A stretch of DNA of 64,000 bases from the human T2T-CHM13v2.0 reference genome, Homo sapiens, in assembly GCF_009914755.1 (NCBI RefSeq), contig NC_060927.1; one strand, written 5' to 3'. The notes under the pieces are model-generated. The model saw only the letters and a list, made by a program, of their open reading frames with translations. It was not told where the DNA came from and made no database searches. Every line of letters starts with the position of its first letter. Position 1 is the first letter of the stretch. Positions 1 to 60,780 of the stretch are shown here, one piece after another. The translations under genes and the position numbers were made by a program.

Positions 1-375
1 TATAATATAATATATAGTATAATATATAATATACTATATAGTATAATATAATATGTAGTATAATGTAATGTAATATATAGTAATAATATACTATACTATA
101 TATAGTATGATATAGTATATATATTACTATATACTATACATAGTATAATATAGTATATATATTACTATATACTATACATAGTATAATATAGTATATATAT
201 TACTATATACTATACATAGTATAATATAGTATATATATTACTATATACTATACATAGTATAATATAGTATATATATTACTATATACTACTAGCTTATATA
301 TAATATACTATATATGCTAGTATAATATACTATATAATATATAGTATATAGTATTATTTAGTAGTTATTACTATA
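1..375. repeat. AT-rich low-complexity tract containing about 5 copies of a 38-bp minisatellite (103-290)
   Basis: Unit tagtataatatagtatatatattactatatactataca starts at 103, 141, 179, 217 and 255. Confidence 0.9.
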
Positions 376-3100: not shown

Positions 3101-4964
3101 TTAACCATGAGTGGTTCCCTGAGCACTTTCCTGAGGAAATAACTTTTTATTCAGTCACTCAGTAGTTTATAGATAAATGCATATATATTAACAACTAACT
3201 TCAGACCCAGAGTATTCTGATGCAGAGTCGTAATTAGAGCAGAAGAGGTTTTACTTCCTTTCAATATTAGAGAGGACATATTTCCAATGTATATACAAAA
3301 AAGCAGGGGGGGTAAATTGCTCCTTATCCTATGCTTGGATTAGTATTAGGGGATGAGAGTAAATTCACCTACTTTTACACAGGAAAAAAATAGATACGTA
3401 TGGCCTTTATTAATATTAATAGTAGGTAGTTAAGCTTAATATTATTATTAATATTATGAAAAGATACTACATTCTCTTAAGTCGTGGCCTTTTTTTGCAA
3501 AACAGAGCAAAAAACAAAGGTAAAAACCCCCACACTATTTCATAAATAACTATATTAGAAATGCTTTTTAAATCTGGATAAATCTTATTAATAATATAAA
3601 TATACATTTTATAGAAATAACAAATGTGCTTTTTAATGGCACCATTAGTAGGTTGGTCATTTACCATATCAAATCACTGGTGCAAGACTATTACTCAAAT
3701 CAACTGAAGTAAAATAAGTTAGAGTATTTTTGTTTATTTTGCTTATAACTCAAATATTTATGTCAGAATACTGATAGAATTATAAATAGAAAATAATACA
3801 CACATTTTATATGTATGTTTGTATAGAAGCTTTGTTAAAAAAAAAACCCTTTTTGGTTATATAGCCAGCATAAGATTAGTAAATGTCCCACTGATAATGT
3901 TTGGCGCCACACACAGTACAAAACGGAAGAGAAAAGGAAATCTTACAGAGCGATTTCTAGAAACAAGTAGATTCTTCAGCTTAGCAAATAGGATGTAAGT
4001 GAATTATGTAGATGAGCATTATATTCTCAAATAATTTGATACAATAAAAGCCTCTAGGTCTTTAAAAAAATTAGAAAAGAATATTTTCAATTTGGTATTT
4101 ACTTCTTACTTCTTGAAAATATTTCTTGCTAACACACTTTTTCTTTTGTACACATACACTAGAGATATGTAAGTATTGATTTGAGAAATGAAAAATGAAA
4201 AACTGTGAAATGACTTCATAATTTTCAGATAGCTATAATGTTTTAGAGGAATCTTAACCCCACTCTATTATCTAATTATATCTTATAAAGCAACAGACCA
4301 AAAATCTTGTTTAAAGTTAGTTGAGCAAGATATATGGAGTTTATACTGATCTATAGACTGGCCACAAGTAAAATAGAAAAGGCAATTTATCTTTGATTAG
4401 CTATCCTTCTCTTACATATTAGCTTTCTCCATCTTTTTATCTTTACTCTTTTTTCACAGAAACTCCATTATCTAGAATTCTTATTTTACCCTCTGCCATT
4501 CTGAGCTTTCCACTGTCACATTTCATTTTATATTAAAATTTGTCTCTTTTCTCTTGTACAGATTTTAGGCCCCATAGGCCAGCTAATTAATCTGATATTC
4601 TGACATAGACTAATATTCCAATGATAGTGATTTAGAGTTTGGGAACCAAGTAAAGTATGTGAAGATGTCCTTTTGAGAGTCAGTGAGCACATTTACCTTC
4701 CTCCAAGCTCACTGCCTTTCCCCAAACCTACCCCAATATGTTTAGACTGGTCCATTAGTAAATTTAATGTGAGAATGTACATCTAGAAAGTGGGAAATGG
4801 TAGAATAGTAGGTTATTGAATGAGAAATTTTGAGCCGGGCAAGTTTTTTGCTGTCTGTCATGTTATATGGTATGCAACAAAACCTGTTCTTTATAGGTTC
4901 AGTCCTGTGACTTTGTGTCATTTTAAAGGACTTCTGAGTCTCATTCATGTTTTTTCCTATGTAG

Positions 4965-5119
4965 CGAACCATTCATAATATTCTCTGGTGGGCTGTCCTA
5001 TGACAAAGCTTGTAGAAGACCAAGTTTAACCATCATGCATGGAAAAGCAATTACAGTACTTGAAATGGATCATCCTATTGTTGAATTTCTAACTTTATGT
5101 GAAACGCCCTATCCAAATG
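4965..5119 (+). CDS. STXBP5L: STXBP5L coding exon, 155 nt: EPFIIFSGGLSYDKACRRPSLTIMHGKAITVLEMDHPIVEFLTLCETPYPN(E)
   Basis: Acceptor ttttttcctatgtag|C, donor AATG|gtaagt; 1+153+1 nt, no stops. Confidence 0.95.
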
Positions 5120-5242
5120 GTAAGTAACTAAAATGAAACTATTAATGTTGAAAATCATTTTGGAAATGACAAGTTTCTAACAAAATTAAGGTTAAATATT
5201 TTCAGATGTCTACTGTGGTATAACGCTGTGAGCTACAAGTGC

Positions 5243-5590
5243 TGGAACAGGTTCTGCAACTGTACCTACTTGAGAAACTGGAAATAACACAGATGTAGTA
5301 CAGCAATGCTGGCATTTCAGGTTCTAATATCAGGTAAGTGCTTTAAACTTTGATTAGATGGTGGAAGCTGAGCTGGGAGGGTCTGATAAGGGTCCAGGGT
5401 GAAATCACTTGGGGAAGCTGAGGTCTCTTAATAGCCTCTCTCAGACCAGCTCCATCAATTCCATCCCAAAGCCAATCAAAGTTAAAGCACTTACCTGATA
5501 TCAGTAATCTGTAACTGTGGTGGTGCTGCATCTGTTTCACATCTGGCTTTGCTTCAGATGCAACTGCAGCACCTCTGATTACTCTAGTAA
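5243..5590. repeat. Imperfect ~350-bp inverted repeat (hairpin); core arms 5327-5355 and 5474-5501
   Basis: atatcaggtaagtgcttt(a)aactttgatt is the reverse complement of aatcaaagttaaagcacttacctgatat (28 bp plus one bulged A); outer arms 5289-5301 / 5523-5535 also pair. Confidence 0.9.
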
Positions 5591-5768
5591 TGCAGATGTG
5601 TGGTTAATGACTTTTTAAAATTTTGAGAATAGTCAGAAGGGACTTTGGGAGGAGAAATGCTTATATATTTTTATTATACTGAATATAAAGACTTTTTGTA
5701 AACATAACAACTAGTCTAAACTTATATGCAATCTGTATAATGAAATCTAATAATGATGAAATATTTTA

Positions 5769-5966
<198 letters not shown>

Positions 5967-12175: not shown

Positions 12176-12669
12176 ATATCAGGCAAATATTATAAAAGTA
12201 ATGACCTTAAAGTCAAATAATTCAGAGGACACAGGCATTCCCATCAAATCAACAACCTTAGACTAGTCCCATTTGCCAAAAGATTTCTAAGTCAAATGTG
12301 AACTTGAAAAGTGCCTGGTCTTATTTGCTTAATTTATGAGTACTCATCTATTTATAAGCCAATTTGGTACCATAGACAAATACAACCAGACTTGTACATG
12401 CAGCCAGATACAAGTCTGGTTGTATTTGTCTATATCGGGCAAATATTATAAAAGTAATGACCTTAAAGTCAAATAATTCAGAGGACACAGGCATTCCCAT
12501 CAAATCAACAATCTTAGACTAGTCCCATTTGCCAAAAGATTTCTAAGTCAAACATGAATTTGAAAAGTTCCTGGTCTTATTTGCTTAATTTATGAATACT
12601 CATCTATTTATAAGCCAATTTGGTACCATAGACAAATACAACCAGACTTGTACATGCAGCCAGATACAA
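12176..12669. repeat. 238-bp tandem duplication (12176-12413, 12432-12669) with an 18-nt inverted templated spacer
   Basis: Copies offset by 256 bp with about 7 substitutions; spacer is a reverse-complement copy of sequence within 12372-12396. Confidence 0.95.
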
Positions 12670-38210: not shown

Positions 38211-39115
38211 GTCACCACCAGAGGTTTTTCTGTAGTTTTAAAATAATTATGACAATAATTTTGGTGATATTCCCATAATGACATTTTTGTAAGTAATTGT
38301 TTTCAATCTTAAAAATGCTCATTTTTACATTATAAGGCAAATATGTGTTATAAAATCAGTTCTAATTAAATCATTTAATGCATTTTATGCATTCATAAAG
38401 TATTTAGTTTTAAAACTTTTTTAGTTTAATAAAGGTTTTTAGGTCACCTTTTTATTCCTATGTAAATTATTATATGTTTTTTATCAAGTAATTCTGATCT
38501 GCTAATTAGATTAAACAAAAGCCAAGGTAATGAAATAAACAACCAAAAATATGGAATTTTGTTTGGAAAATTTTTAGTGAATTAATGCAAAGTTAAAATG
38601 CAATGAAAGTTTTTTATACTAAAAGGCTTTAAACAAGTAATTTTTTCATACACACACAAACATACACACTACACACACATATACACGTTTGTGTGTGTAT
38701 ATGAAAAAAGTTTAATTTCTTTCATTGGAATAACCATAATCAACTTCTCCTTTTATTTTATCATATATCAAATTGTAATATATAAATTGTAATTTATACT
38801 ATATCTTAAAGTATATTTATTATATAAAAACTTTATCTTCACTGAGGTATTTTTCTTTTAATTCTGAAGTTTAAAAATTTACATTTTTTGTGATTGCCAT
38901 TGAATATTCCATATAATTAACTATTTGATTTAGTATGAGATACTTCTCAACTTTCCTGTAAATAGTATTGAACTTATTAATTTGAAAAAAACTGTGTGAA
39001 TGATTCCTAAAAAGTTATCAGGTATTTTAATGTGATTATTTATTATGACTTAGATTAAATTAAAACGATGATTATTAGTGTGACTTAAATTAAATTTAAA
39101 CTTGATTTTTTTAAG

Positions 39116-41399: not shown

Positions 41400-42700
41400 T
41401 TTCTCTTTATATTTCATTTTGGATACTTTCTTTTGACTTATCCTTTAGAGTTCACTAACTCCCTCTTCAACTGTGTCTGATCTGATGGTAGATCCACCTA
41501 TGGAGTTCAATTTCAGCTATTTTATTTTTCAGTTCTAGACCTTACATTTGATTATTTTAAAACATCCTGTTCTCTTCCTAAATTATCACTCTATTCTTTA
41601 TTTCTTTGAACATATTGAATGTATGACTTTAAAATGTGTTACTTTAAATATGTGTTTGATACTTCCATATTTGGTATCTAGTCTATTACATTTCTTAGTT
41701 TTGGGTCACATTATATTATGTTCATGTATGCCAGTTTGTATGATTTTTTTATTAGTTGTTCCTGGTTTTTTTTTTAATTGAGAAATGAACATTATAATTT
41801 GAGGTTCTAGATGATACTTTCCTCCAGAAAGTATCTACATTTCCTCTGGCAGTCTAGGTTAAAAAACTATTGAAGGGTCAGAACAACATAATTCAAGCAG
41901 ACATCAGGTCTTTGAAAGTTGGATTTTATTCCCATTAAAGCCTAATTTAATTTCAGTTAATCCTTATTTCTAGGTTGTAGCCCTCCACAGAGGTTGTGTC
42001 AAACTATACTCCCACCACCAATGTTTAGAATGTCTACTTTCCTACAACCTTTCTAACTACAATGTATAATCAAACTTTCCATCCTGGTCAGTTTGTTAAG
42101 TAAAGAGTAGTATGTTATTATAATATCAGTAAAATTTTTGTATATCTTAAGTGAAATTGAACATCTTTTCCTGTTTTGTGACATTCTGTTTCTATTCTTT
42201 GTCCATTTGTCTGTAAAGTTGTTGGCCTTCATAGAGATTTGTGAAAACTGTTTGCATATTAGGGAAGTTAGCTTTCTCTATAGTGTAATTTGCAATGATC
42301 TTCCCTGCTTTTGTTTGCTTTATGACTTTGTTTAAGATGGTTCTTACTTTAAAGAATTTTTTGCAATTCTATTTTTTGTTATCTTTTATGGCTCTGAATT
42401 TGTGTCTTATTTAAAAAGTCCTTCCTCACTTCAAGATAATAATAAAAATTAATAAAAACAAAAAAATTATGTTCTCTCTAATATGCTTTTTTTCTTTTAT
42501 ATGTTTAAATCTTTGATCTGTCTGGAATTTTTTTAAGTATAAGATATGAAGTAAGTATTAAACTATATTTTTTCCTGATGGCTAAGAATTGTGCCAATAC
42601 CGTTTCCTGAATACTTCATCTTTCTATGCTTATTTGGAATCAACTTTTATCAAATAATACATTACCTTATATATTTCACTTTTATTTCTGTACTTCCTAA
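41400..42700 (-). mobile_element. Ancient L1ME-like antisense fragments
   Basis: ctcttcaactgtgtctgatctg, tactcccaccaccaatgt, gtttaaatctttgatctgtctggaattt. Confidence 0.55.
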
Positions 42701-43199
42701 GCTGAGTCTTATAAGCTCCAAGAGAATGCCTTGAAACCATCAGTAAGGAGTCCATGGAAAAAAGTCTTATCTTTGAGTACCTGGAATTTTCTTCAGGGGG
42801 ATGTGGAGGATATATGTGAACATAGAGTATTGGGTGCTTGCTTCTTTACTAGAATATTATTTGATGGGAAAGCTGGCAACCACAGTTGATGGATGATGGG
42901 AGAGAAGGAATGGACTGTGGGATAGCCTACTGTTTCATTATTTGATACGGTAAGAATATATGATTATTCTCTAGCCCAAGTAATTACTGTGAAAGATAGT
43001 TGAGCTCAAGCCATCTTCTGAGTTCACTTCTCTAGAGTTTGACCTGTAAAGACAAGGGGACTTCAGAATTCAGAGACTATAAAGATGTGTCACCTGGTTC
43101 AGAAGCTGAAGTTTGTTAGAATAGATCAGATAAAAAAACACATTTCCCTTATAAGGGAACTGTGGAGGTGAAAGTTATTACAGAGCTTCTGAATAACTG

Positions 43200-43790
43200 A
43201 CACTTGTATGAAAATGACAGCTTGGACATCTATCTCATAGAGAGCCTCCACTGCAAAAATCCTAGTTCATGTGGCTACTAGAGTAAATTCCACCAAGTTT
43301 TAAAGAAATAAATTTTACAAGTATTACTTTAAATGTTCCTGAGAATTATTAAAGATGAAATCATGTTCATCTCATTTTATGGCCAACATAACTCGATGCA
43401 AAAACTTGAAAAGGGTATTACAAAAAGAGAAAGTTGTAAGTCTATATCATTTATGAACATGGATTTAAAATCCCAACCAAAATATAGATAAATCTAGCAA
43501 TTAAAAAAGATAACATATCATAACCAAGTTTGGTTTACACCAGGAATTCAAAGTTTTTAAACATTTTAAATTAATCAGTGTAGTTCATCACATTAGCAAA
43601 TAAACTAGAAAAACCATATGATGGTCTGGTCAGGAATGCAAAAAACAAAAACATCTGATAAAATTAAATATCCATTTATGACTTCAAAAGAAACTAATAG
43701 CTAAAATGGAAGGAATTTTTCTTAATCTGATACATTTTAGCAAATATGCTCTATGGTGAAATGTTAGAGACTTTGTCTTTGAGGAAAAAA
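43200..43790 (+). mobile_element. Old L1M ORF2 (RT region) fragment
   Basis: aaattccaccaagttttaaagaa...tcattttatggccaacataac...ccaagtttggtttacaccaggaattcaaag. Confidence 0.7.
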
Positions 43791-43799
43791 TAAGAGAAG

Positions 43800-44786
43800 T
43801 TTCTTAGTCCATTTGGGCTGCTTAACAAAATATCTTACAAATTGGTAATTTGTAACAACTAAGATTTATTGCTCACAGTTCTGGAGGCTAGAAAGTCCAA
43901 AATCAAGGTCTCAGGAGATTCAGTGTCTGTCTCTCTGCTTTGCTCTCTGCTTCAAATATAGCACCTTCTAGCTTTGTTTGCGATTGGCAGAAGGAGTGAA
44001 CAAACTCCCTCAGAATTCTTTTATGAGAAAATGAATTCCATTCATAATGGCGGAATCCTCCCAAAGACCCAGTCACCTTCCCAAGGCCCCAACTCTTAAT
44101 ACCATCACCTTGAGGATTAGATGGTCTGAATTTGGGGAAACACAAAAATTCAGACCATAACATTGTGACCTTGCTTCCCAAAATTTATGTCTTTCTCATA
44201 TGCAAAATACATTCTTTTGATTCTAATAGCTCCAAAAGTCTTAAAACATTTTAGCATTAACTCAAAAGTTTAACGTTCAAAGTCTCATCAAAATATCATC
44301 TGGGCTGGATGTAGTGGCTTACGCCTGTAATCCCAGCACTTCGGGAGGCCAAGGCAGGTGGATCACCTGAGGTCAGGAGTTTGAGACCAGCCTGGCAAAC
44401 ATGGTGAAACCCCATCTCTACTAACATTGTAAAAATTAGCTGTGCGTGATGGCACGTGCCTGTAATCCCAGCTACTAGGGATACTGAGAATCGCTTGAAT
44501 CCAGGAGGCAGAGGTTGCAGTGAGTTGAGATTGTGCCATTGCACTCCAGCCTGGGTGACAGAGTGAAACTCCATCTCAAAAAAAAAAGTCACCTGAATCA
44601 TATATGGGTGAGACTCAAGGTATGATTCATTCTGAGGCAGGTTTCTTCTCCAACTGTTACCTTATGAAATCAAACAAGTTATATGTTTCCAAAATACAAT
44701 GGTGGGATCAGCACAAGGTAAACATACCCATTCTAAAGGGAAGAATTAGGAAAAAAGAAAGGGATAATAGCTCCAAAGTAAGTCCC
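43800..44786 (-). mobile_element. MaLR (MLT1A-like) LTR 43800-44162 plus partial internal region, interrupted by an Alu and cut off at an L1
   Basis: cttagtccatttgggctgc...gctcacagttctggaggct...ttcagaccataaca, followed by MaLR-int-like sequence similar to 18623-18860. Confidence 0.78.
44303..44587 (+). mobile_element. Alu (AluS-like)
   Basis: Dimeric Alu with a short right-arm deletion; degenerate TSD (atcatctg / gtcacctg). Confidence 0.9.
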
Positions 44787-47700
44787 ATAAAACTCCCATC
44801 TCCCTGGGACAGAGCACCTGGGGGAAGGGGTGGCTGTGGGCACAGTTTCAGCAGACTTAAATGTTCCTGCCTGCTGGCTCTGAAGAGAGAAGTGGATCTC
44901 CCAGCACAGCGCTTGAGCTCTGCTAAGGGACAGACTGCCTCCTCAAGTGGATCCTTGACCCATGTGCCTCCTGACTGGGAGACACTAGCTGGCATGGGTC
45001 GACAGACACCTCATACAGGAGAGCTCTGGCTGGCATCTGGAGGGTGTCCCTCTGGGACAAATCTTCCAAGGAAGGAACAGGCAGCAATCTTTGTTGTTCT
45101 GCTGCCTCCACTAGTGATACCCAGGCAAACAGGTTCTGGAGTGGACCACCCAGCAAACTCCAGCAGACCTGCAGCAGAGGGACCTGACTATTAAAAGGAA
45201 AACTAACAAACAGAAAAAAATAGCATCAACATCAACAAAAAGGACATTCACACAAAAACCCCATCTGAAGGTCACCAACATCAAAGACCAAAAGTAGATG
45301 AATCCACGAACATGAGGAAAAACCAGCACAAAACGATGAAAATTCCAAAAACAAGAAAGCCTCTTCTCCTCTAAATCATCACAATTCCTCACCAGCAAGG
45401 GAACAAAACTGAATGGAGAATGAGTTTGACGAATTGACAGAAGTAGGCTTCAGAAGGCAGGTAATAACAAACTCCTCTGAGCTAAAGGAGCATGTTCTAA
45501 CCCAATGCAGGGAAGCTAAGAACCTTGAGAAAAGGTTAGAGGAACAGCTAAGTAAGATAACCAGTTTAGAGAAGAAGATAAATGACCTGATGGAGCTGAA
45601 AAATACAGCACGTGAAGCATACACAAGTATAAATAGCCAAATTGATCAAGTAGAAGAAAGGATATCAGAGATTGAAGATCAACTTAATGAAATAAAGCGT
45701 GAAGAAAGGATTAGAGCAAAAAGAATGAAAAGGAATGAACAAAGCCTCCAAGAAATATGGGACTATGTGAAAAGACCAAACCTATGTTTGATTGGTGTAC
45801 CTGAAAGTAACAGGGAGAAGGGAACAAAGCTGGGAAACACTCTTCAGGATATTATCCAGGAGAACTTCCCCAACCTAGCAAGACAGGCAACATTCAAATT
45901 CAGGAAATACAGAGAATATCACAAAGATACTCCTTGAGAGAGAAACCACAAGACACATACTTGTCAGATTCACCAAGGTTGAAATGAAGGAAAACATGTT
46001 AAGGGCAGCCAGAGAGAAAGGTCAGGTTACCCACAAGGGAAAGCCCATCAGACTAACAGAGGATCTCTCTGCAGAAACCTTACAAGCCAGAAGAGAGTAG
46101 GGGCCAATATTCAACACTCTTAAAGAAAAGAATTTTCAACTCAGAATTTCATATCTAGCCAAACTAAGCTTCATAAGCAAAGGAGAAATAAAATCCTTTA
46201 CAGACAAGCAAATGCTGAGAGATTTTGTCCCCACCAGGCCTGCCTTACAAGAGCTCCTGAGGAAAGCTGAGGCAGATTCTTCTCCAACTGTGAGCTTATG
46301 AAATCAAACAAGTTATATGTTTCCAAAATACAATGGTGACATCAGCACAAAGTAAACATACCCATTCTAAAGGAAGAATTAGGAAAAAAGAAAGGGGAAA
46401 TAACTCCAAAGTAAGTCCCATAAAACTCCCATGGAGTTTTGGAAAGAAAAAACCGGTACTAGCCACTGCAAAAACATACCAAATTGTAAAGACCATCGAC
46501 ACTAAGAAGAAACTGCCATCAACTAACAGGCAAAATAACCAGCTAGCGTCATAATGACAGGATCAAATTTACACATAACAATATTAACCTTAAATGTAAA
46601 TGGGCTAAATGCCCCAATTAAAAGACACAGACTGGCAAATTGGATAAAAAGTCAAGACCCATTGGTGTGCTATATTCAGGAGACCCATTGTATGTGCAAA
46701 GACACACATAGGCTCAAAATAAAGGGATGGAGGAATGTTTACCAAGCTAATGGAAAGCACAAAAAAAAAAAAAAAAGATTGCAATCTTAGTCTCTGATAA
46801 AACAGACCTTAAACAACCAAAGATCAAAAAAGACAAACAAGGGCATTACATAATAGTAAAGGGATCAATGTAGCAAGAAGAGCTAACTATATATATGCAC
46901 CCAATACAGAAGTACCCAGATTCATAAAGCAAGTTCTTAGAGACAGACAAAGAAACTCAGACTCCCACACAATAATAGGGAGACTTTTACACCCCACTGT
47001 CAATATTAGACTAATCAACAAGACAGAAAATTAATAAGGATATTCTGGACTTGAACTCAGCTCTGGAACAAGTGGACCTAATAAACATCTACAGAACTCT
47101 CCACCCCACATCAATGAATATACATTCTTCTCAGCACCACAATGCACTTATTCTAAAATTGACCACATAATTGGAAGTAAAACACTCCTCAGCAAGTGCA
47201 AAAGAACGGAAATCATAATAAACAGTCTCTCAGACCACAGTGCAATCAAGTTAGAACTCAAGATTAAGAAACTCACTCAAAACCATGCAACTACATGGAA
47301 ACTGAACAACCTTTTCCTAAATGACTACTGGGTAAGTAATGAAATTAACGCAGAAATAAATAAGCTCTTTGAAACCAATGAGAACAGACACAACGTACCA
47401 GAATCTCTGGGACACAGCTAAAGCAGTGTTTAGAGGGACATTTACAGCACTAAATGCTTACAAGAGAAAGCAGGAAAGATCTAAAATTGACACCCTAATA
47501 TCACAATAAAAAGAGCTAGAAAAGCAAGAGCAAAAATATTCAAAAGCTAGCAGAAGAAAAGAAATAACTAAAATCAGAGCAGAACTGAAGGTGATAGAGA
47601 CATGGAAAACCCTTCAGAAAATCAATGAATCCAGGAGCTGGTTTTTTGAAAAGATTAACAAAATAAATAGACCACTAGCCAGATGAATAAAGAAGAAAAG

Positions 47701-50516
47701 ATAGAAGAATCAAACAGGAACAATAAAAAATGATAAAGGGGATATCACCTCTAATCCCACAGAAATACAAGCTACCATCAGAGAATACTATAAACTAGTA
47801 TTTCTAGTTTATAATAAACTAGAAAATCTAGAAGAAATGGATAAATTCCTGGACTCATATACCCTCGCAAGACTAAACCAGGAAAAAGTCAAATCCCTGA
47901 ACAGACCAATAACAAGTTCTAAAATTGAGGCAGTAATTAATAGCCTACCAACCAAAAAATGTCCAGGAGCAGGTGGATTCACAGCCGAATTCTACCAGAG
48001 GTACAAAGAGGAGCTGGTACCATTTCTTCTGAAACTATTCAAAACAATAGAAAAAGAGGGATTCCTCCTTAACTCATTTTATGTGGCCAGCATCACCCTG
48101 ATACCAAAACCTGGCAGAGACACAACAAAAAAAGAAAATGTCAGACCAATATCCCTGATGAACATCGATGCGAAAATCCTCAATAAAATACGGGCAAACC
48201 GAATCCAGCAGGACATCAAAAAGCTTATCCACCACGATCAAGTTGGCCTCATACCTGGGATGCAAGGTTGCTTCAACATGTGCAAATCAATAAACGTAAT
48301 CCATCACATAAACAGAACCAATGACAACCACTTGATTATCTCAATAGATGTAGAAAAGACCTTTGATAAAATTCAACAGCCCTTCAGGCTAAAAACTCTC
48401 AATAAACTAGTAATTGATGGAACGTATCTCAAAATAATAAGAGCTATTTATGAGAAACCCACAGCCAATATCATACTCAATAGGCACAAGCTGGGAGCAT
48501 TCCCTTTGAAAACTGACACAAGATAAGGATGCGGTCTCTCACCACTCCTGTTCAACATTAATATTGGAAGTTCTGGCCAGGGCAATCAGGCAAGAGAAAG
48601 AAATAAAGGGTATTCAAATAAAAAGGGAGGAAGTCAAATTGTCTCTGTTTGCAGATGACATGATTGTATATTTAGAAAACCCTATCGTCTCAGCCCCAAA
48701 TCTCCTTAAGCTGATAAGCAACTTCAACAAAGTGGCAGGATACAAAATCAGTGTGCAAAAATCACTACAATTCCTATACAACAACAACAGACAAAGAGAG
48801 TGAACTCTCATTCACAGTTGCTACAAAGAGAATAAAATACCTAGGAGTACCACTTAGAAGGGATGTGAAGGACCTCTTCAAGGAGAACTACAAACCACTG
48901 CCCAAGGAAATAAGAGAGGACACAAACAGATGGAAAAACATTCCGTGCTCATAGATTCAATGCTATCCCCATCAAGCTACCATTGACTTTCTTCACAAAA
49001 TTATAAAAAAGTACTTTAAATTTCATATGGAACCAAAAGAGAGCCCGTATAGTTAAGATAATCCTAAGCAAAAAGAACAAAGCTGGAGGCATCATGCTAC
49101 CTGACTTCGAACTATACTACAAGGCTACAGTAACCAAAACAGCATAATACTGGTACTAAAACAGATATATAGACCAATGGAACAGAACCAAGTTCTCAGA
49201 AATAACACCACACATTTACAACCATCTGATCTTTGACAAACCTGACGAAAACAAGCAATGGTGAAAGAATTCCCTATTTAATAAATGGTGTTGGGAAATC
49301 TGGCTAGCCATATGCAGAAAACTGAAATTAGACCCTTTCCTTAGACCTTATACAAAAATTAGCACAAGATGGATTAAAGACTTAAACATAAGACCTGAAA
49401 CTATAAAAGCCCTAGAAGAAAACCTAGGCAATACCATTCAGGACATAGGCATGGGCAAAGACTTCATGACTAAAACATCAAAAGCAATGGTAACAAAGCC
49501 AAAATTGACAAATGGGATCTAATTAAACTAAAGAGCTTCTGCACAGCAAAAGAAACTATCATCGGAGTGACCAGGCAACCTACACACTGGGTGAAAATTT
49601 TTGCAATCTATCCATCTGACAAAGGTCTAATATCTAGAATCTACAAAGAACTTTAACAAATTTACAAGAAAAAAACAACCCCATCAAAAAGTTGGCAAAC
49701 GATAGGAACAGACACTTCTCAAAAGAAGACATTTATGCAGCCAACAAATATATGAAAAAAAGCTCATCATCACTGGTCATTAGAGAAATGCAAATTAAAA
49801 TCACAATGAGATATTATCTCACGCCAGTTAGAATGGTGATTATTAAAAAGTCAGGAAACAACAGATGCTGGAGAGGATTTGGAGAAATAGGAACGCTTTT
49901 ACACTGTTCGTGGCAGTGTAAATTTGTTCAACCATTGGGGAAGACAGTTGTGGCGATTCCTCAAGGATCTCAAACCAGAAATATTATTTGACCCAGCAAT
50001 CCCATTACTGGATATATACCCAAAGGATTATAAATCATTCTGCTATAAAGACACATGCACACATGTGTTTATTGCAGCACTGTCCACGATAGCAAAGACT
50101 TGTAACCAACCGAAATGCCCTTCAATGATAGACTGGATAAAGAAAATGTGGCACATATACACCATGGAATACTATGCAGCCATGAAAATGTATGAGTTCA
50201 TGTCCTTTGCAGGGACATGGATGAAGCTGGAATCCATTCTCAGCAAACTAACACAGGAACAGAAAACCAAACACTGCATGTTCCCACTCATAAGTGGGAG
50301 CTGAGCAATGAGAACACATGGACACAGGGAGGGGAACATCACACACTGGGACCTGTCAGGGGATGGGGTGCTAGGGGAGGGGTAGCATTAGGAGAAGTGC
50401 CTAATGTAGATGATGGGTTGATGGGTGCAGCAAACCCCCATGGCACATGTATACCTAGGTAACAAACCTGCACATTCTGTACATGTATCCCAGAACTTAA
50501 AGTATAATAAAAAAAG
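44787..50516 (+). mobile_element. Near-full-length L1 (L1PA7-like) with partial 5' UTR and disrupted ORF1/ORF2
   Basis: ORF-track peptides are ORF1p (45413-45937) and ORF2p fragments (MTGSNLHITILTLNVNGLNAPIKR at 46554; RT motif FADD in 48564-48803); 3' UTR and poly-A at about 50505-50516. Confidence 0.95.
46267..46440 (+). repeat. Ectopic 166-bp copy of 44632-44799 inserted in the L1, followed by an 8-nt snap-back
   Basis: Direct alignment by eye shows about 11 differences; ends aaaactcc-cat-ggagtttt. Confidence 0.95.
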
Positions 50517-51305
50517 AATAACTGAAAGATATATATTGATTATTACCATATTATATACTTGAATACACATTAAAGCGTAATAGATTGATTTCATCTAATG
50601 AATGCAAACAAAGCATTTATATATAATAAAAAGGGAAAAGCAGAGAGAGAAAAACCACGGCCACTTTCTAAACAATGAATTTTCTATTTTTTTTTCATTG
50701 TGAGATGCTAATGAGTTAGCAGCCGGCCAAAAGACCAGTCAGGGTATTTGCTTTTGGACAGCTGTATGAATCATCAACTAAACTGATTTCATTTATTTCT
50801 AGCTTTTCCAAAAGGCTTTAGCTGTTCAGTTTGTCGCACATATATGGAAGACATTTTCTGTATTATTTATGTCATTATCATTTAGTAGTATGCCTGTCTG
50901 AATTACACCAGGTCTTTATCATTCTTCTTCTTATAATTTCTCAATTTCACCCTTTTGGTCAAACTCAACCCCCAAGCTGACTGACCATGAGGGCCTCAGT
51001 CTCTTTATAGAACAGATTATTAGTTATATAGTACCTCATTACAATGCCTATGTAGCAGCATTTCAGTATCTGGACATTAGACATTAAGGGGGGAAAAAAG
51101 CATAAGACAATCATGATTATTATAAGAAATATGTGGAAACCACTTGATGTTCTAAATCCTGGTTGGCCGAAGTCTAACTAGGAAAATAATTTTCAAGGAT
51201 TAATGTGGTTAACTTTAGTTAACTCAGTGGCCTTACTATTCCATTCACTATTAATTGTTTACTCTTTTGAAGAACATATCAAGGGGCAACTGTTAAGTCA
51301 GAAAC

Positions 51306-51830
51306 TGTGAAGGGTCTAAGATGTTTCCCTCTTAGAAAATAGTAAATTTGTCTGCGACAGTATTATATGTGTGTGTGTGTATATATATATATGTATATAT
51401 ATATATAGACAGAAAATAGTCCTCTGGGTCAGAACAAAGATAGTTTATTAGTGACAGCAAAAGCAGCAGCTTAGTGCAAGATCTTGCATCAGTTCTCTGA
51501 GCCCACAGGGGAACATGGTGAGTGGCAGATGGTACTTGCATGTGCAACTGGGTGCATAATAAAAGAGGAACTCCAAGTTTTAAAAACTCACATCTTATGT
51601 AGGTCTGCTGGTGAACTGCCCATTTATCTTTACTCTGGAACATAAGCAAATATTCTCTGGGGAAGAAGAGAGGTTTTTTATCTCTACTACCCTGAAATGT
51701 CTCAAAGTAGGGAGATGCCCCTAAGCTTTACTATTCTGGGATGTCTCTTTATACAAACATAACTGTAAATGCCTTCACTAAAAGGACTGTGCAGTACAGT
51801 GAAGTACTAATGGAGAATGGTCTACCAATT
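51306..51830 (-). mobile_element. ERVL-type solo LTR (MER77/MER68-like) with an internal (TG)n(TA)n microsatellite
   Basis: tgtgaagggtctaagat...ctctgggtcagaacaaagatagtttatt resembles the recalled consensus; right boundary approximate. Confidence 0.55.
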
Positions 51831-52189
51831 GTAATGTGACCAGTTGTACATTATTATTTAGGATTAATTGTGCCAGTTTGTTTATATTAGCCTGTGAGAT
51901 CCTTAGACTTAAGTTGTGTTACTTGCCATTTGAGTCTATGTTTAGAAGTAAATTGCATATCTCACGTTTCAGTTTAAGAATTTTTTGCTGGAATAGAATT
52001 CTTGTAAGAACCTTTGAAATTCAGTCTTGTTCCCCTTTGGATATGTTGTGATATTGGGCTTTTGATAAAATATGAGTAGTCACTCATATTGAGGGTTTTG
52101 CTCTGAACTTGGAAAGATAATATAACAAATTTAAGAACTGAAAACTGGTCTTACTCTTTCAGTGTATGTTTCCTAAGAAGAAGAGCTTT

Positions 52190-53515
52190 TTTTTTTTTTT
52201 TTACATCATAAGCATAGTGTATTTTTTAAATTAAGAAATTCAACATTGATTCAGGACTATTTTCTACTTCACATACCATATTAAATTTCTAGATATGTCC
52301 CAATAATGTCATTTATATTGTCTATTCACAGAACAGAATCAAATCCAGGATCTGGCATTGCTTTTAGTTTTCATTTCTTCTTAGTCTCCTTTAATCGGGG
52401 GCAGTTCTTCAGCATTTTTTTTTTAGATGGTGTCTCGCTCTATTGCCCAGACTGGAGTACAGTGGCACGATCTCAGCTAACTGCAACCTTCACCTCCTGG
52501 GTTCAGGCAATTCTCATGCCTCAGCCTCCTGAGTAGCTAGGATTACAGGCATGCACCACCACACCCAGCTAATTTTTGTATTTTTAGTAGAGATGGTGTT
52601 TTGCCACGTTGACCAGGCTGGCCTTGAACTCCTGACCTCATGTGATCCGCCCACCTAGGCCTCCCAAAGTGCTGAGATTACAGGCGTGAGCCACTGTGCC
52701 TGACCCAGCATTTATTTTTTAACCTTCATATTTTTAGAGTACAGCCAATTATATTGTTAACTGTACCTCAGCTGAGTTTGTCTGATATTTCCTCATGATG
52801 AGAGTAAATTAAGCATTTTGGCAGGAATACCACAGAAACAAGGTAATGTCTTCTCAGTTTATCTTATCAGAAGGTACATGATCATGGATTGTCCTAATTT
52901 TAGTGGTGCTAATTTTGATTGCTTGTTAAGGTGATATCTACCAGGTTTCTCCACTATAAAGTTGCTGTTTCCCTTCATAGATAATAGTTTGTGGGGAGAT
53001 ACTTGAAAGTTTTTAAACTTCTTACTCATCAAACTTTCACCCATTACATTTAGCATCCATTGGTTATTCTCTGTTACCCTTCTATATTTATAAGTTAGAT
53101 TCTACTATTAAGAGACCATAACTCCCTATCCTATATAAACATTTATTTACTTGTTTACTATATAAGTATGAAATCTTAGATTTGCATTTTATTCAGTGAG
53201 TTAAGATCTGTTTCTATCATTTGTGCCTGTGATGCTCTAATTCTTCCAGATTTGACCATATGGAACCCCATCAAAATGGCTTCTATGTCCTTTTGATATG
53301 TTCCCATCGTTTTTTAGCAGTTTGTTATTTTCCAGTACAATGTGATGTTCAATATGTATCTTGTATATTCTTTAGTCTACCCCTGGAATCAGCTATCTTA
53401 GTCTTCTTTTACTGGAGAATGTTATTTAGAAAACAATGTCTGGGCACAATAGATGCTCATTTCTATTGTTGTCATTGCCTCTAGCCCCTATCAGTATACA
53501 AAGCTAAGAAAAAAC
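52190..53515 (-). mobile_element. L1MC-like 3' fragment
   Basis: attttggcaggaataccacagaa...ggtttctccactataaagtt...gtggggagatacttgaa. Confidence 0.7.
52415..52705 (-). mobile_element. Alu (AluS-like), antisense
   Basis: Dimeric Alu; cagcattt on both flanks. Confidence 0.92.
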
Positions 53516-53697
53516 AAACATTGAACACTTTTTGATATATATGAGATACAATTTTAAAGGATATATAGAGGTTATAATTTTGAAGTAGATTATCAATTTA
53601 TTCTTTTATATTCTTGCTTTTGGATTCTTCTAAGAAATCTTTTTATCATGAATGTCTTGTGAATTCAGTCAAATCCTTTTACTGCATCAATTAAAAC

Positions 53698-53888
53698 TGT
53701 ATTAGTCCATTCTCAAACTACTCTAAAGACATGTCTGAGATTGGGTAATTTATGAAGAAAAGAGGTTTAATTTACTCACAGTTCTGCAGGCTGTGCTGGA
53801 AGCAAAGCTGGGAGGCCTCAGGAAACTTACAATCATGGTGGAAGGTGAAGGGGAAGCAAGCACATCTTACTATGGTGGAACAGGAGAT
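53698..53888 (-). mobile_element. Truncated MSTA/THE1-type MaLR LTR
   Basis: tgtattagtccattctc...aagaggtttaatttactcacagttc...ggaggcctcaggaaacttacaatcatggtggaagg. Confidence 0.82.
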
Positions 53889-53889
53889 A

Positions 53890-56800
53890 TTTGTCCATTT
53901 TAAAATTTTCTTCCTGTGATTGATTTCTAGTTTTATACTATTGTGATCAGGAAAGGTACTTGATATGATTTCAATCAGCTAAGATTTGGTCTAACATGTT
54001 ATCTTTTCTGAAGAATGTCTCACATGTGCTGGAGAAGAATGTGTATTCTTCTGCTGTTGAATGGAATATTCTGTATGTGTCCGTTAGATCCATCTGCACT
54101 AACATATAGTTCAGGTCCAATTTTCTTTACTGATTTTTTGTCTAGATAATGTATCTATTGTTGAAAGTGAGAGTGTTGAAATGCCCTACTTTTATTGAAT
54201 TGCCATTTGTATCTCCCTTCAGTTGTGTTAATATTTGCTTTACATATTTAGGTATTCTGATATTGGGCACATATGTATTCATAGTTGTTATATCTTCTTG
54301 ATGGATTGACTTCTTTATTGTTATTTAATGATCCTCTTTGTCTTATGACAGTTTTTAACTTAAAGTCTGTTCTCTTCTGATATAATTAAGCTACCTCTGC
54401 TCTATTTTAGCTTCCATTTTTATAGAAATTCATGTTCATCCCTTCACTTTCAGCCTATGTGTAAGGCTAAAGTTAATCTCTTGTAGGCAGCATATAGTTG
54501 GATCTTAATTTTTGATCCATTCAGCCACTCTTCCTTTTGTTTGGAGAATTTAAACAATTTACATTTAAAGTAATGATTAGTAGGTACAAATTTACAATGC
54601 TATTTTTATTTTCTGGTTATTTTTAATGGATTCTTTGTCCTTCCTTTCTTGCTTGCTGTGTTCCCTTGTGCTTTGTTGATTTTCTGTAGTGATATGCTTT
54701 GATTCTTTTCTCTTTATCTCATATATACCTACTATGTTTCTGTTTTACAACTACGATGAGGTTTACGTGGAACATCTTATACTTAATAACAGTCTATTTA
54801 GAAATGATAACAACTCAACTTCAATTTCATTCAAAATCTCTACCATTTTACCTGTCACTCTCCTCCAGCACACATTTTATATTTATATATATTTTATATT
54901 GTGAATTTATTAACAAAACAACAAAATATTATACCTATAGTTACTTTTAATACTTTTGTCTTTTGACCTTTATACTGGACTTAAAGTTGATTTATACACC
55001 ATCATTTCAGTACTACAATATTGTGAATTTAACTATAAATTTACATTTATAAGTATATTTTATGCTTTTATATGATTTCATGTTACTAATTAACACCCTT
55101 CCATTTTAGCTTAATTTAAGATCCCTTTAGCATTTCTTGTAAGACAGGTCTAGTGGTGATGAACTTCATCATCACTTTTGTTTGTCTGTGAAAGTATCTC
55201 TCCTTCATTTCTGAAGAACAATTTTGCTAGATACGGTATTGTTGGATGGCAGTTTTTTTTTTTTCTTTTTGCGCTTTGAATAAATCATCCCATTCTCTGG
55301 TGCTGTATGGTTTCTGCTGAGAAGTGTTCTGTTAGCACTATTACTGTTCCCTTGTATGTAACAAGTTACTATTCTCTTACTGCTTTCAATTTTTTTTAAT
55401 GTTTGGCAGTTTGATTATAATGTGTCTGTGTGAAGCTGTCTTTTGGATTGAATCTGTTTGGGAACCTTTGAACTTCATAAATCTGGATATGTATATTTCT
55501 CTCAAGGTTATCAAAGTTTTCAACCATTATTTCTTTAAATGTACTCTCTGTCCCTTTCTCTCTCTTCCTCTGAATCTCCCATAATGTGACTATTGGTTCT
55601 CTTGATAGTGTTCAATAAGGGTTTCTTTTCTGTTTTTTGTTATTTTCAGTGTTCTATAGGGTTTCTTTCCTCTTTTCTATTCTTATCTATTTTTTGTACT
55701 CTGATAGTATAATTTCAAAAGATCTGTCTTCAAGTTTTCAAATTTTTTCTTTTGCTTGATCAAGTCGGCTAGCAGAGCTCTCTACTGCATTTTTTCTTTC
55801 ATTCATTATTCTTTTAGCTCCAGAATTTCTACTTGGTTCTTTTTTGTGATTTCTTTTTGTTGAACTTTAAATTTTATTCACGTATTATTTTCCATTGTTT
55901 CTTGAGTTGTCTGTTTACTCTTGTGTCTTGCTCAGCTTGAGCTTCCTTAAAAGAATTAAAATAATTATTTTGAATTTGAAAAATAATTATTTTGAATCAT
56001 TTTTCAGATAACTAATAGATCTCCATTTTGTTGAGGTCAGTTCCTGGATAGCTATTGTGTTCCTTTGCCAGTGTTATCATTCCCTGCTTTTTTGTGTTTT
56101 TAGTGAACTTGCATTGATGTTTGTATATTTGAGGCAACAAGTCACCTGATCTGGTCTTTTTGAAGTAGATACAGTGGGGAAATGCTTTCAGCTGTGAATG
56201 GCTACAAGGGCACCAGCTGGATGGGGTGCAACATCTCCTGTTTTAAGAAAGACACAGGTATGGTCTCAATGCAGTTTAATCAGCCGAAGTCAGTGTTGGC
56301 AAATACTGCAGGTATCCATGGCAGAAGCCAAAGTTGCAGATGTCTGTAGTAACTGTAGTGGTTAAGGCTGTTAAGGTCCTCAGTATTGAAAGCTGTTGAG
56401 TTTCTCCTATTCAACTTTTATCTCACATAGGGAAGTTCCAGCCAAAGTGATTCCTCTTGGCACTAAGTCTGATGTGCTGGCACACATGCAGCTGTGGTGG
56501 TGTTGGGATCCTGGCCACTGGTGCACAGTCAGCAATGCTGGTTCTGGGTGCAGGTGCCCAGAGCAGCCATGAAGCCAGGGCTCTGTGGTCAGAGGCACAT
56601 GTAACTGAGGTGGTGCCTGGGGCACAGGTGCATTTTTTTTATTTGGCATTGACACCAATGTCTGAGGCCTGGGCATATACAGATTGCCTATAGAGTAAGA
56701 ACCTGTGTCATCTTTGGGGAATGCCATGATGACTTGGTCCCAGGGGTGATGAGACATAGTAATAGCATGGAACATAGCAGTAACGTGGGTCCAGCGACAA

Positions 56801-59800: not shown

Positions 59801-60280
59801 GAGAGCTCTGCAGTTTCATTGGTAGTAGCATAAAATATTCTTAGCCTTGTGTGAGCTCTGGGAATTGTTCTGCCTTATCTTTTTGGTGGCTCTTTTATAG
59901 GTCTTGAGTAGCTTCTGCACATGGATGCACAGATTAGTACACAGCCGAAGTCTCAAGGACATCTTTCTGCAAATCTCTGGTATTCTCTCTCTGTGCAGTT
60001 TATTTTGCCTTATTAGTTGTAGCTGTTTTTGTAGTCTCAGTCTCTCATCTCTGCCTCCTCAACTAAATGAGACCATCAATCTCTCTTTGAGTTCTAGTTT
60101 CCTGTGCCCAAGCCTGGGAACTATCTTCAGTCACTAACACAGAACATTTGTGAAATGTATTACCTTGGTTGCTATCCTTCTCTCATCTTATTCTATGTTG
60201 CCTGTTGACCAATATGTGAAAACTGTTGTTTAATATATTTTTGCCCACTTTTCTAGTAATTTAAAATAGGAGATTAAATC
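53890..60280 (-). mobile_element. Series of old antisense L1M fragments (EN, ORF1, 5' UTR and ORF2 pieces)
   Basis: gagaagaatgtgtattcttctgctgttgaatgg, tcttgtaggcagcatatagttgg, ttgctgtgaatttgtagatcagtttgggga; internal boundaries approximate. Confidence 0.75.
59001..59358 (-). mobile_element. MLT1A-type solo LTR
   Basis: tgtcttagtc...gcttataaacaacagaaatttatttctcaca...acaaacattcagaggatagca. Confidence 0.85.
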
Positions 60281-60619
60281 TTTTCTCTTTACCAACTTTC
60301 TGACAACTACTGCCTGACTTCCCCAGCCCTAAGCTATAACTTCTCAGTATTCTTATTTTTAATTCCAAGACAAAAATAATTATTTATGGTATATAGAATG
60401 TCATGCATCCTAGTTGCCTACATTTTTTCAGTCATTATTGCATTTAGAAACTCTATCGTGTCTGTAAGCAGAAGTAATTTGCTATATTTTAACATAAAAA
60501 GTTTAAGGATACTAATTTGTTATAACTGGTAACATGTATAATATTGCATTTATTTATAATATTAAGATCAATTCTTTTTGCATGGAAAAATTTCAATGTA
60601 CTTTAAAAATAATTTTCTG

Positions 60620-60780
60620 ACTTGATACTCATAAAAGCTCTGTGAACCAGATAAATGTAGAAGTGTAATTATCATTATAAAGAAGCTAAGGCCAAGCAAG
60701 ATTCATTAATTTTTCTCAAAGTCACATATCCTGTAAGTGATAGAGATGAGAATTAAACCCAGATCTGACCAGTATAACAA
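60620..60780 (-). mobile_element. MIR SINE
   Basis: aagctaaggcc...ctcaaagtcacata...gagaattaaacccagatctg. Confidence 0.6.

What the first reader, a model, noticed from the sequence alone, without database searches (positions are those of the whole stretch)
5177..5501. Candidate poison exon whose perfect 5' splice site is buried in a 28-bp intramolecular stem by a U1-like strand
Seen: 86 nt after the STXBP5L donor at 5119 there is a branch-point-like CTAAC (5177-5181), an acceptor attttcag|ATG (exon start 5206) and a fully consensus donor CAG|GTAAGT (5331-5339). These define a 128-nt exon. Spliced in phase it reads DVYCGITL-TGA (stop 5229-5231) and also frameshifts. The donor sits in the left arm (5327-5355) of a stem whose right arm (5474-5501) contains ACTTACCTG (5489-5497). 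Established: that 9-mer equals the splice-site-pairing 5' end of U1 snRNA, and RNA stems can mask 5' splice sites. Inference: pairing is nearly perfect (28 bp, one bulge) exactly over the donor while the rest of the palindrome is eroded, suggesting a maintained structural switch that gates NMD of tomosyn-2 mRNA. The pyrimidine tract is short, so extension of the upstream exon to 5333 is an alternative outcome.
Basis: partly seen in the sequence, partly recalled or inferred. Interest (0 to 1): 0.8.

Follow-up and report, generated by a model that had tools for sequence, protein, structure and literature searches.

The report
Hairpin-buried donor of STXBP5L poison exon
An already annotated, stop-codon-carrying alternative exon of the synaptic gene STXBP5L has its perfect splice donor inside a strong, single-copy RNA hairpin that should hide it, but whether this is a regulated switch or an accident of DNA history could not be tested here.

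Summary
The 128-nt exon 5206-5333 has an AG acceptor and the consensus donor CAG|GTAAGT. It reads DVYCGITL-stop in phase. The hub's gene table already lists it as an exon of other RefSeq transcripts, so it is not a new exon.

The stem 5327-5355 / 5474-5501 is 28 bp with one bulged A. It is the outer part of a ~200-nt imperfect palindrome, 5315-5514. The 191-nt fold gives -86.1 kcal/mol, z = -8.96, with 0 of 200 shuffles as good. The predicted cost of freeing the donor rises from 2-4 to 18-22 kcal/mol once the right arm is transcribed.

The "U1-like strand" is a tautology: any complement of a perfect donor equals the 5' end of U1. Rfam finds no U1 match.

No further copy of the palindrome was found in the human genome. 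This argues against an ordinary repeat family. Mismatches show no strand bias, G·U 4 versus A·C 4. Conservation, junction usage and NMD sensitivity could not be tested.

Verdict: a real, strong candidate for a donor-masking hairpin of a known kind. The claim of a maintained switch is unproven.

The parts
4965..5119 (+). Constitutive STXBP5L coding exon upstream of the alternative exon. Its donor is ATG|GTAAGT.
   Evidence: Hub gene table. Translation EPFIIFSGGLSYDK...TPYPN. The predicted opening energy of its donor is about 5.9 kcal/mol and does not change with the downstream hairpin.
5120..5205 (+). 86-nt intron before the alternative exon. It has a branch-point-like CTAAC at 5177-5181 and a weak pyrimidine tract.
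   Evidence: 9 of 17 pyrimidines at -20..-4. If this intron is retained, the frame stops after 2 codons (GK*).
5206..5333 (+). 128-nt alternative exon carrying a stop codon (poison exon). It is already annotated in other RefSeq transcripts.
   Evidence: Hub gene table ('exons of other transcripts 5206-5333'). The in-phase reading is DVYCGITL*, and 128 nt is not a multiple of 3.
5229..5231 (+). In-frame TGA stop codon, 102 nt upstream of the exon's 3' junction.
5331..5339 (+). Perfect consensus 5' splice site CAG|GTAAGT.
5315..5514 (.). Imperfect palindrome of about 200 nt, centred at 5414/5415. No other copy was found in the human genome.
   Evidence: Arm identity is 7/9, 30/32, 21/30 and 15/29 from outside to centre. 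The inner part reached its score in 1 of 1000 shuffles. Genome searches found only the locus itself.
5327..5355 (+). Left arm of the 28-bp stem. It contains the donor.
5474..5501 (+). Right arm of the 28-bp stem. It contains ACTTACCTG (5489-5497), the exact complement of the donor.
5375..5414 (+). Cluster of five G-runs (GGG or GGGG) in the intron just after the donor, on the left inner arm only.
   Evidence: 5 runs in 5340-5420. Only 0.36% of 6392 81-nt windows of this window have 5 or more. The mirror segment has 1 C-run. Reading G-runs as hnRNP H/F-type intronic enhancers is recalled knowledge and was not tested.

Best explanation
5206-5333 is a genuine, already annotated alternative exon of STXBP5L (tomosyn-2). 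Including it puts a stop codon into the WD40-coding part of the mRNA, so the isoform is unproductive and an expected NMD target.

Its perfect donor lies about 10-17 nt inside the left end of a ~200-nt palindrome that has no other detected copy in the genome. During transcription the donor is as accessible as the neighbouring constitutive donor for about 150 nt. Once 5474-5504 emerges, a helix of 28 bp or more closes over the donor, and a 9-bp U1 duplex cannot open it at equilibrium.

The most likely working is therefore a kinetic race between U1 binding and hairpin closure. Together with the weak acceptor, this keeps exon inclusion low. I read it as a built-in damper on an unproductive exon, not as a demonstrated regulated switch.

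The palindrome most likely arose at the DNA level, by inverted duplication or template switching that re-copied one arm. It did not arise as a mimic of U1.

Shown: the sequence, frame, stem, predicted energies and the lack of other copies. Inferred: that the stem forms in cells, that it lowers donor use, and that the isoform is degraded by NMD.
For: - Exon, splice sites and stop: plus the hub table.
- Stem: 28 bp plus one bulge. z = -8.96, 0 of 200 shuffles as good.
- Donor opening energy is 4.3 and 2.0 kcal/mol with transcripts ending at 5473 and 5488. It is 17.9 to 21.9 kcal/mol with transcripts ending at 5505 or later. The constitutive donor stays at about 5.9. The core-arm duplex is -46.2 kcal/mol, against -11.6 for the 9-bp donor:complement duplex.
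- No other copy in the human genome. BLAST of 411 nt and of 371 nt finds only the locus and its own arms. A 28-mer with up to 3 mismatches gave 1 match, itself. The core 22-mer gave 49 matches against 53 for the control. In up to 37 loci around pattern hits, no alignment extended beyond 60 nt. The 9-mer pair at 135-165 nt spacing gave 4 sites against 2 for the control, and the other 3 sites are unrelated.
- Stems that hide a 5' splice site from U1 are documented for tau exon 10 (PMC2483273, passages) and SMN2 exon 7 TSL2 (PMC1802598, abstract). A stem that controls a poison exon is documented for SF3B3 (PMC11162794, abstract and introduction).
- Template switching can create or re-perfect stems in one event (PMC8794818, abstract).
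Against: - There are no experimental or comparative data: no junction counts, no NMD-block data, no structure probing and no other species.
- The arms are 118 nt apart, and the donor and its complement 149 nt apart. From memory (Eperon et al. 1988, not seen here), hairpins with loops longer than about 50 nt masked 5' splice sites poorly in vivo. If so, U1 may usually win the race and the stem may matter little.
- That the exon is annotated at all shows the donor is used despite the stem.
- The genome search is word-based. A very old or very low-copy repeat family could have been missed.
Confidence: 0.5

Rival explanations
1. The stem is kept by natural selection as a regulated structural switch. 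A factor such as a helicase, G-run-binding hnRNP H/F or ADAR opens it in some states, letting U1 in and sending tomosyn-2 mRNA to NMD to tune its dose.
For: - The core arms match 30/32 while the inner palindrome matches 21/30 (Fisher p = 0.02). The terminal part matches 37/41 against 36/59 (p = 0.0012).
- No repeat family explains it.
- Five G-runs lie just after the donor on one arm only, in the top 0.36% of windows. This is a strand-specific feature.
- The energetics give a clean on/off contrast.
- SF3B3 shows that conserved stems can control poison exons (PMC11162794).
Against: - No conservation or covariation data could be obtained.
- Mismatches compatible with G·U on the transcribed strand number 4, against 4 A·C, so there is no sign of RNA-level selection, though the power is low.
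- The paralog STXBP5 has no such hairpin within 1.5 kb after the homologous exon.
- No paper found by the searches names this exon. Where passages were read, the STXBP5L splicing events described lie elsewhere in the gene: exon 24 / the 171-nt exon, and a 5' UTR event. The other papers were seen as listings only.
- A near-perfect core can come from one template-switch event (PMC8794818).
Confidence: 0.15
2. The stem does nothing in vivo. The palindrome is a neutral relic of a DNA-level event, either an inverted duplication or template switch, or a very old transposon with terminal inverted repeats. It happens to carry CAGGTAAGT in both arms. U1 binds before the right arm is made, or proteins keep the RNA open. 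The low-level exon is splicing noise limited by its weak acceptor.
For: - Both arms carry the 9-mer, so it was present when the palindrome formed. It was not tuned later on one arm.
- The identity pattern resembles a MITE: high in the terminal ~41 nt and lower inside.
- The flanks read TT|CAG...CTG|TA, close to a TA target-site duplication. Knowledge of Tc1/mariner ends is recalled.
- The G·U to A·C count is 4:4.
- The spacer is long, 118-149 nt.
- The pyrimidine tract is weak, 9/17.
Against: - No second copy of any part was found in 3.1 Gb. Both arms sit close to their common ancestor, so a family of even tens of copies at 20% divergence or less should have given matches.
- The predicted helix is extremely stable: -46.2 kcal/mol for the core arms.
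- The inner helices should speed closure.
Confidence: 0.28
3. The double-stranded RNA has another main role. It could be a substrate for ADAR editing, which would alter A residues in the donor (-2, +3, +4), or for Drosha/Dicer. In the second case the hairpin starts exactly at the intron's first base, as in a tailed mirtron.
For: - The outer arms form a nearly perfect duplex of about 45 bp in a brain-expressed pre-mRNA.
- The hairpin's 5' arm begins at the GT of the donor.
- An edited intronic dsRNA is reported in STXBP5L (PMC10172764, passages).
Against: - The reported dsRNA has a 17-bp Z-prone stem with edits in the loop. That does not fit this 28-bp stem, which is not Z-prone. No position is given in the text, and the six readable supplementary files have no STXBP5L entry. 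Two supplementary tables were too large to read.
- No miRNA family matches 5206-5600 at E up to 10.
- A 118-nt interior is far from pre-miRNA shape.
Confidence: 0.05

Closest known systems
Tau (MAPT) exon 10 / intron 10 stem-loop
   Same: Self-complementary sequence at the exon-intron junction limits U1 snRNP access to the donor of an alternative exon in a neuronal gene (PMC2483273, passages).
   Different: The tau stem is short and local, its exon is coding, and disease mutations prove its effect. Here the stem is 28 bp or more, closes across 118 nt, and the exon carries a stop. Nothing has been tested.
SMN2 exon 7 terminal stem-loop 2 (TSL2)
   Same: A structure over the 5' splice site lowers U1 snRNP recruitment and exon inclusion (PMC1802598, abstract).
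   Different: TSL2 masks a weak donor. Here the donor is a perfect 9-of-9 consensus and the helix is far longer.
SF3B3 conserved stem with concealed branch sites upstream of a poison exon
   Same: An intronic RNA structure sets the inclusion of a poison exon and thereby gene output (PMC11162794, abstract and introduction).
   Different: The SF3B3 stem hides branch sites, not the donor. It is conserved from fly to human and validated by SHAPE-MaP and genome editing. Here conservation is unknown.
Reverse-complement repeats made by template-switch mutation
   Same: A single replication event can create or re-perfect a hairpin stem. This would explain a near-perfect core inside an older, decayed palindrome (PMC8794818, abstract).
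   Different: That work concerns short stems in RNA genes. Whether a 32-nt tract here came from such an event needs outgroup sequences.
MITE (miniature inverted-repeat transposable element)
   Same: The size is about 200 nt, the termini are the best-matching parts, and the ends read CAG...CTG next to T-rich/TA flanks.
   Different: No other copy was found in the genome, and there is no clear target-site duplication.

Membership tests
Poison (PTC-introducing, NMD-type) cassette exon | Bounded by usable AG acceptor and GT donor, with junctions seen in transcripts | tested here: met
   The acceptor is ttttcag| and the donor is CAG|GTAAGT. The hub gene table lists exon 5206-5333 in other RefSeq transcripts. 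The transcript evidence itself was not seen.
Poison (PTC-introducing, NMD-type) cassette exon | Inclusion creates a premature stop more than ~50 nt upstream of a later exon junction | tested here: met
   The TGA at 5229-5231 is in phase, 102 nt before the exon's 3' junction, and eight more coding exons follow in the window alone (hub table). The 50-nt rule is recalled knowledge.
Poison (PTC-introducing, NMD-type) cassette exon | The isoform rises when NMD is blocked | not testable with these tools
   No RNA-seq data on hand.
5' splice-site-masking stem-loop (tau exon 10 / SMN2 TSL2 kind) | Donor nucleotides are base-paired in a stable structure | tested here: met
   This is a prediction only. 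All 9 donor bases are paired in the minimum-energy and centroid folds. Opening costs 18-22 kcal/mol.
5' splice-site-masking stem-loop (tau exon 10 / SMN2 TSL2 kind) | The structure forms in cells; destabilising changes raise donor use and compensatory changes restore repression | not testable with these tools
   Needs probing and minigene or ASO experiments.
Conserved regulatory RNA structure | Conservation across species with compensatory base changes | not testable with these tools
   No vertebrate genomes are held. Within-sequence proxy: G·U 4 versus A·C 4 among arm mismatches, no strand bias.
MITE / DNA-transposon-derived palindrome | Multiple related copies in the genome | tested here: not met
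   Only the locus itself was found. The core 22-mer gave 49 matches against 53 for the control. Hits did not extend. The 9-mer pair gave 4 sites against 2 for the control, none related. Very old or very rare families could be missed.
MITE / DNA-transposon-derived palindrome | Terminal inverted repeats flanked by a target-site duplication | tested here: inconclusive
   The terminal 41 nt match 37/41. The flanks are TT and TA. The 8-bp flanks TGGCATTT and TAACTGTG do not match.
U1 snRNA-derived sequence | Similarity to U1 beyond the 9-nt splice-site-pairing end | tested here: not met
   The Rfam scan of 4800-5900 at E up to 10 lists 11 weak matches, none of them U1. The 9-mer is simply the complement of the donor.

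The most novel reading that the evidence does not exclude
The palindrome is a selectively maintained, strand-specific RNA switch. The G-run cluster just after the donor recruits hnRNP H/F-type proteins, or ADAR or a helicase acts on the helix, and this holds the stem open in particular neuronal states. U1 then captures a perfect donor that is otherwise locked, and tomosyn-2 mRNA goes to NMD. That would be a structure-gated dose control of a brake on synaptic and insulin vesicle release.
Probability: 0.12. Interest if true: 0.65.

Novelty: new member of a known kind. Interest (0 to 1): 0.35.

Why it matters
STXBP5L (tomosyn-2) restrains vesicle fusion in neurons and beta cells, so a built-in way to divert its mRNA to decay would set its dose.

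If the hairpin controls the exon, it would be an unusually clear case of a perfect donor silenced purely by structure. It would also be an easy target for antisense oligonucleotides in either direction: mask the right arm to lower the protein, or mask the exon to raise it.

If the hairpin does nothing in cells, the locus is still a useful natural test of how far apart two arms can be and still hide a splice site during transcription.

As it stands, the exon is already annotated and the mechanism is of a known kind, so the finding is a good candidate rather than a discovery.

Tried and rejected
- Repeat origin. I searched the whole human assembly with 411-nt and 371-nt queries. I also searched with a 28-mer and two 22-mers at up to 3 mismatches, and with the donor/complement pair at 135-165 nt spacing. 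No family was found. The inner 22-mer gave 40 matches against 2 for the control, but the reversed control contains a CpG. The 9 loci kept from that search (L041-L049) align over 59 nt or less. I rejected it as a family signal.
- U1 or another RNA family. The Rfam scan at E up to 10 gave nothing meaningful over 5206-5600. The snoR124, snoR11 and snoTBR17 matches are far below their gathering scores.
- TDP-43 cryptic exon. STXBP5L is on TDP-43 target lists (PMC13343711, passages). That event is a 5' splice-site shift in the 5' UTR (bioRxiv 10.1101/2025.08.28.672801, passages), not this exon.
- Known STXBP5L alternative splicing. The SLM2/Sam68 targets are a 171-nt exon / exon 24 (PMC5397175 and PMC11077083, passages), not this exon.
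- Edited STXBP5L dsRNA (PMC10172764). It has a 17-bp Z-prone stem with edits in the loop and no position in the text. The six readable supplements had 0 occurrences. Tables S1 and S4 were too large to read and might hold the position.
- Paralog test. The homologous STXBP5 exon on contig 6 (76% identity) has no comparable inverted repeat in the 1.5 kb after it.
- Recursive splicing. The acceptor junction would read ATG|ATGTCT, which is not a reconstituted donor, so I rejected it.
- Cross-species conservation could not be attempted with any tool held.

Full report
**Observation.**
- CTAAC is at 5177-5181, and the acceptor attttcag|ATG puts the exon start at 5206.
- The donor CAG|GTAAGT is at 5331-5339 and ACTTACCTG is at 5489-5497.
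- Joined in phase to the constitutive exon 4965-5119, the 128-nt exon reads ...TPYPN-DVYCGITL-stop. It also shifts the frame.
- Retaining the 86-nt intron 5120-5205 stops the frame after two codons.
- The stop is 102 nt before the exon's 3' junction.
- The acceptor's pyrimidine tract is weak, 9 of 17. The two neighbouring constitutive acceptors have 13 and 14 of 17.
- The hub's gene table already lists 5206-5333 among 'exons of other transcripts', so the exon is annotated, not new.

**The stem.** 5327-5355 pairs with 5474-5501 as 28 bp with one bulged A in an A-run.
- Folding 5320-5510 gives -86.1 kcal/mol against a shuffle mean of -50.08 (sd 4.02). That is z = -8.96, with 0 of 200 shuffles as good.
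- Folding 5200-5610 gives z = -5.98, with 0 of 100 shuffles as good.
- A scan of the whole window for close inverted repeats listed 22 pairs. By my reading of the list, 18 are AT-rich low-complexity, two belong to a structure at 12.4 kb, one is a CA/GT hairpin at 38.6 kb, and one is this stem.
- The only two CAGGTAAGT sites on either strand of the window are the two arms. 0.58 are expected, and 8 of 100 shuffles give 2 or more.

**Extent of the palindrome.** I aligned the left half to the reverse complement of the right half.
- The palindrome runs from about 5315 to 5514, centred at 5414/5415.
- Identity from outside to centre is 7/9 (5315-5323), 30/32 (5324-5355), 21/30 (5356-5385) and 15/29 (5386-5414).
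- The inner part is significantly palindromic: 1 of 1000 shuffles reach its score.
- The exon body against 5505-5650 is not: 129, 281 and 153 of 1000 shuffles reach the score.
- So most of the exon lies outside the palindrome, and the donor sits 10-17 nt inside its left end.
- The near-perfect core extends 7 nt upstream and 16 nt downstream of the donor 9-mer. It is not 'exactly over the donor'.
- The core matches better than the inner part: Fisher p = 0.02 for 30/32 versus 21/30, and p = 0.0012 for 37/41 versus 36/59.

**The 'U1-like strand'.** The complement of a perfect donor is by definition the 5' end of U1, so this adds no information. An Rfam scan of 4800-5900 at E up to 10 gave 11 weak matches, none of them U1. 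None over 5206-5600 came near its gathering score.

**Energetics (predicted).**
- Making the nine donor bases single-stranded costs 4.3 and 2.0 kcal/mol when the transcript ends at 5473 or 5488.
- It costs 17.9 to 21.9 kcal/mol when the transcript ends at 5505 or later.
- The constitutive donor at 5117-5125 stays at about 5.9 kcal/mol throughout.
- The core arms give a duplex of -46.2 kcal/mol. A 9-bp donor:complement duplex, standing in for U1 pairing, gives -11.6 kcal/mol.
- At equilibrium the donor would be shut. There is a window of 149 nt of transcription between the donor and its complement in which U1 can bind.
- From memory (Eperon et al. 1988, not seen here), long-loop hairpins masked 5' splice sites poorly in vivo. 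That the exon is annotated shows the donor is used at some level.

**Origin.** I found no repeat family.
- BLAST of 411 nt and of 371 nt against the 3.1-Gb assembly found only the locus and its own arms.
- The 28-mer core with up to 3 mismatches matched only itself.
- A 22-mer of the core gave 27+22 matches against 44+9 for the reversed control.
- An inner 22-mer gave 24+16 against 2+0. The reversed control contains a CpG, so it is biased low.
- Aligning 5150-5700 to up to 37 loci around these hits gave no alignment longer than 60 nt. The best was 59 nt at 73%.
- The donor/complement pair at 135-165 nt spacing occurs at 4 sites genome-wide against 2 for the control. The other three sites are unrelated.
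- Both arms are nearly identical and so sit close to their common ancestor. A family of even tens of copies at moderate divergence should have shown up.
- The search is word-based, so a very old or very rare family cannot be excluded.
- The ends read TT|CAG...CTG|TA, near a TA duplication. The 8-bp flanks do not match.
- The paralog STXBP5 (76% identical exon) has no comparable hairpin in the 1.5 kb after its homologous exon.

**Selection or accident.** Among arm mismatches, 4 would be G·U on the transcribed strand and 4 would be A·C. This is no strand bias, with low power.
- In favour of strand-specific function, five G-runs lie at 5375-5414 just after the donor. Only 0.36% of 6392 81-nt windows of this window have five or more. 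The mirror arm has one C-run. That G-runs act as intronic enhancers is recalled knowledge.
- Against needing selection, template switching in replication can create or re-perfect a stem in one event (PMC8794818, abstract). That would give a near-perfect core inside an older decayed palindrome.
- Cross-species alignment would decide between these, and no tool here holds vertebrate genomes.

**Literature.**
- Searches for STXBP5L with 'poison exon', 'cryptic exon', 'nonsense-mediated' and 'NMD'+'exon', and for tomosyn-2 with 'splice', found 2, 7, 18, 11 and 28 papers.
- None of the titles, abstract openings or passages I saw names this exon. Most of these papers were seen as listings only.
- The TDP-43-dependent event is in the 5' UTR (bioRxiv 10.1101/2025.08.28.672801, passages).
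- The SLM2/Sam68 target is a 171-nt exon / exon 24 (PMC5397175 and PMC11077083, passages).
- An edited STXBP5L intronic dsRNA has a 17-bp Z-prone stem (PMC10172764, passages). Six supplements were searched without a hit, and two tables were too large to read. This does not fit the present stem.
- Supplementary tables of large splicing surveys were not searched and may list this exon.

**Comparison with known systems.**
- Stems that hide a donor from U1 are established for tau exon 10 (PMC2483273, passages) and SMN2 exon 7 (PMC1802598, abstract).
- A conserved stem that controls a poison exon is established for SF3B3, where it hides branch sites (PMC11162794, abstract and introduction).
- The present case works like these on paper. 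It differs in having a perfect donor, a much longer helix and a 118-nt interior.
- Membership in the functional class is not shown. The defining tests are probing, mutation with rescue, and conservation, and none could be run.

**Verdict.** The poison-exon part is already annotated. The stem is real, strong and without a detected second copy. The 'maintained switch' is unproven.
- Most likely (0.5): the hairpin and the weak acceptor together damp an unproductive exon through a race between U1 binding and stem closure, and the palindrome arose at the DNA level.
- Stem has no effect in vivo: 0.28.
- Selected, regulated switch: 0.15.
- Another dsRNA role: 0.05.
- Novelty: new member of a known kind. 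Interest: 0.35.

Noticed in passing
window 12341-12669: A 73-nt direct repeat, 12341-12413 and 12597-12669, is identical at 73 of 73 bases. It overlaps a perfect 25-bp hairpin with a 12-nt loop (12372-12396 / 12409-12433). It lies in the same 10.4-kb intron and is not low-complexity. Origin unknown.
   Followed up: partly
window 38641-38707: A (CA)n/(GU)n hairpin of about 21 bp with a 25-nt A-rich loop folds at -22.4 kcal/mol, z = -4.95, with 0 of 200 shuffles as good. It could be the 'short, heavily edited' STXBP5L intronic dsRNA with a 17-bp Z-prone stem shown in Fig S8 of PMC10172764. No position is given in the text, so this is a guess.
   Followed up: partly
window 5375-5414: Five G-runs lie within 40 nt just downstream of the poison exon's donor, on the left inner arm only. 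This is in the top 0.36% of 81-nt windows. They may be hnRNP H/F-type sites that could compete with closure of the hairpin.
   Followed up: partly
window 5315-5339 (+) and 5489-5514 (-): Each arm of the palindrome looks like a tiny exon unit: an acceptor-like tttcag (or ttacag on the minus strand), then 13-14 nt, then CAG|GTAAGT. The minus strand therefore also carries a perfect donor. No antisense gene is annotated there.
   Followed up: no
window 5517-5572: A second, smaller inverted repeat lies immediately 3' of the palindrome: 18-nt arms, 78% complementary, 20 nt apart.
   Followed up: no
window 5777-5900: A sub-threshold partial match to metazoan SRP RNA (model positions 1-121, 30.4 bits against a gathering score of 70, E = 7.6e-06) and weak mir-1285/mir-1268 matches. 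I read these as the start of an Alu element about 260 nt after the palindrome; the Alu reading is recalled knowledge.
   Followed up: no
window 41974-61752: The hub table lists a 19.8-kb 'exon of other transcripts' that starts at a good acceptor (tttctag|G at 41974). It ends at 61752, inside the pyrimidine tract 10 nt before exon 61762. This looks like a retained-intron model or a table artefact.
   Followed up: partly
window 1-360: A dense AT-rich tandem and inverted repeat block with a period of about 38 nt. It accounts for many of the inverted-repeat pairs.
   Followed up: no
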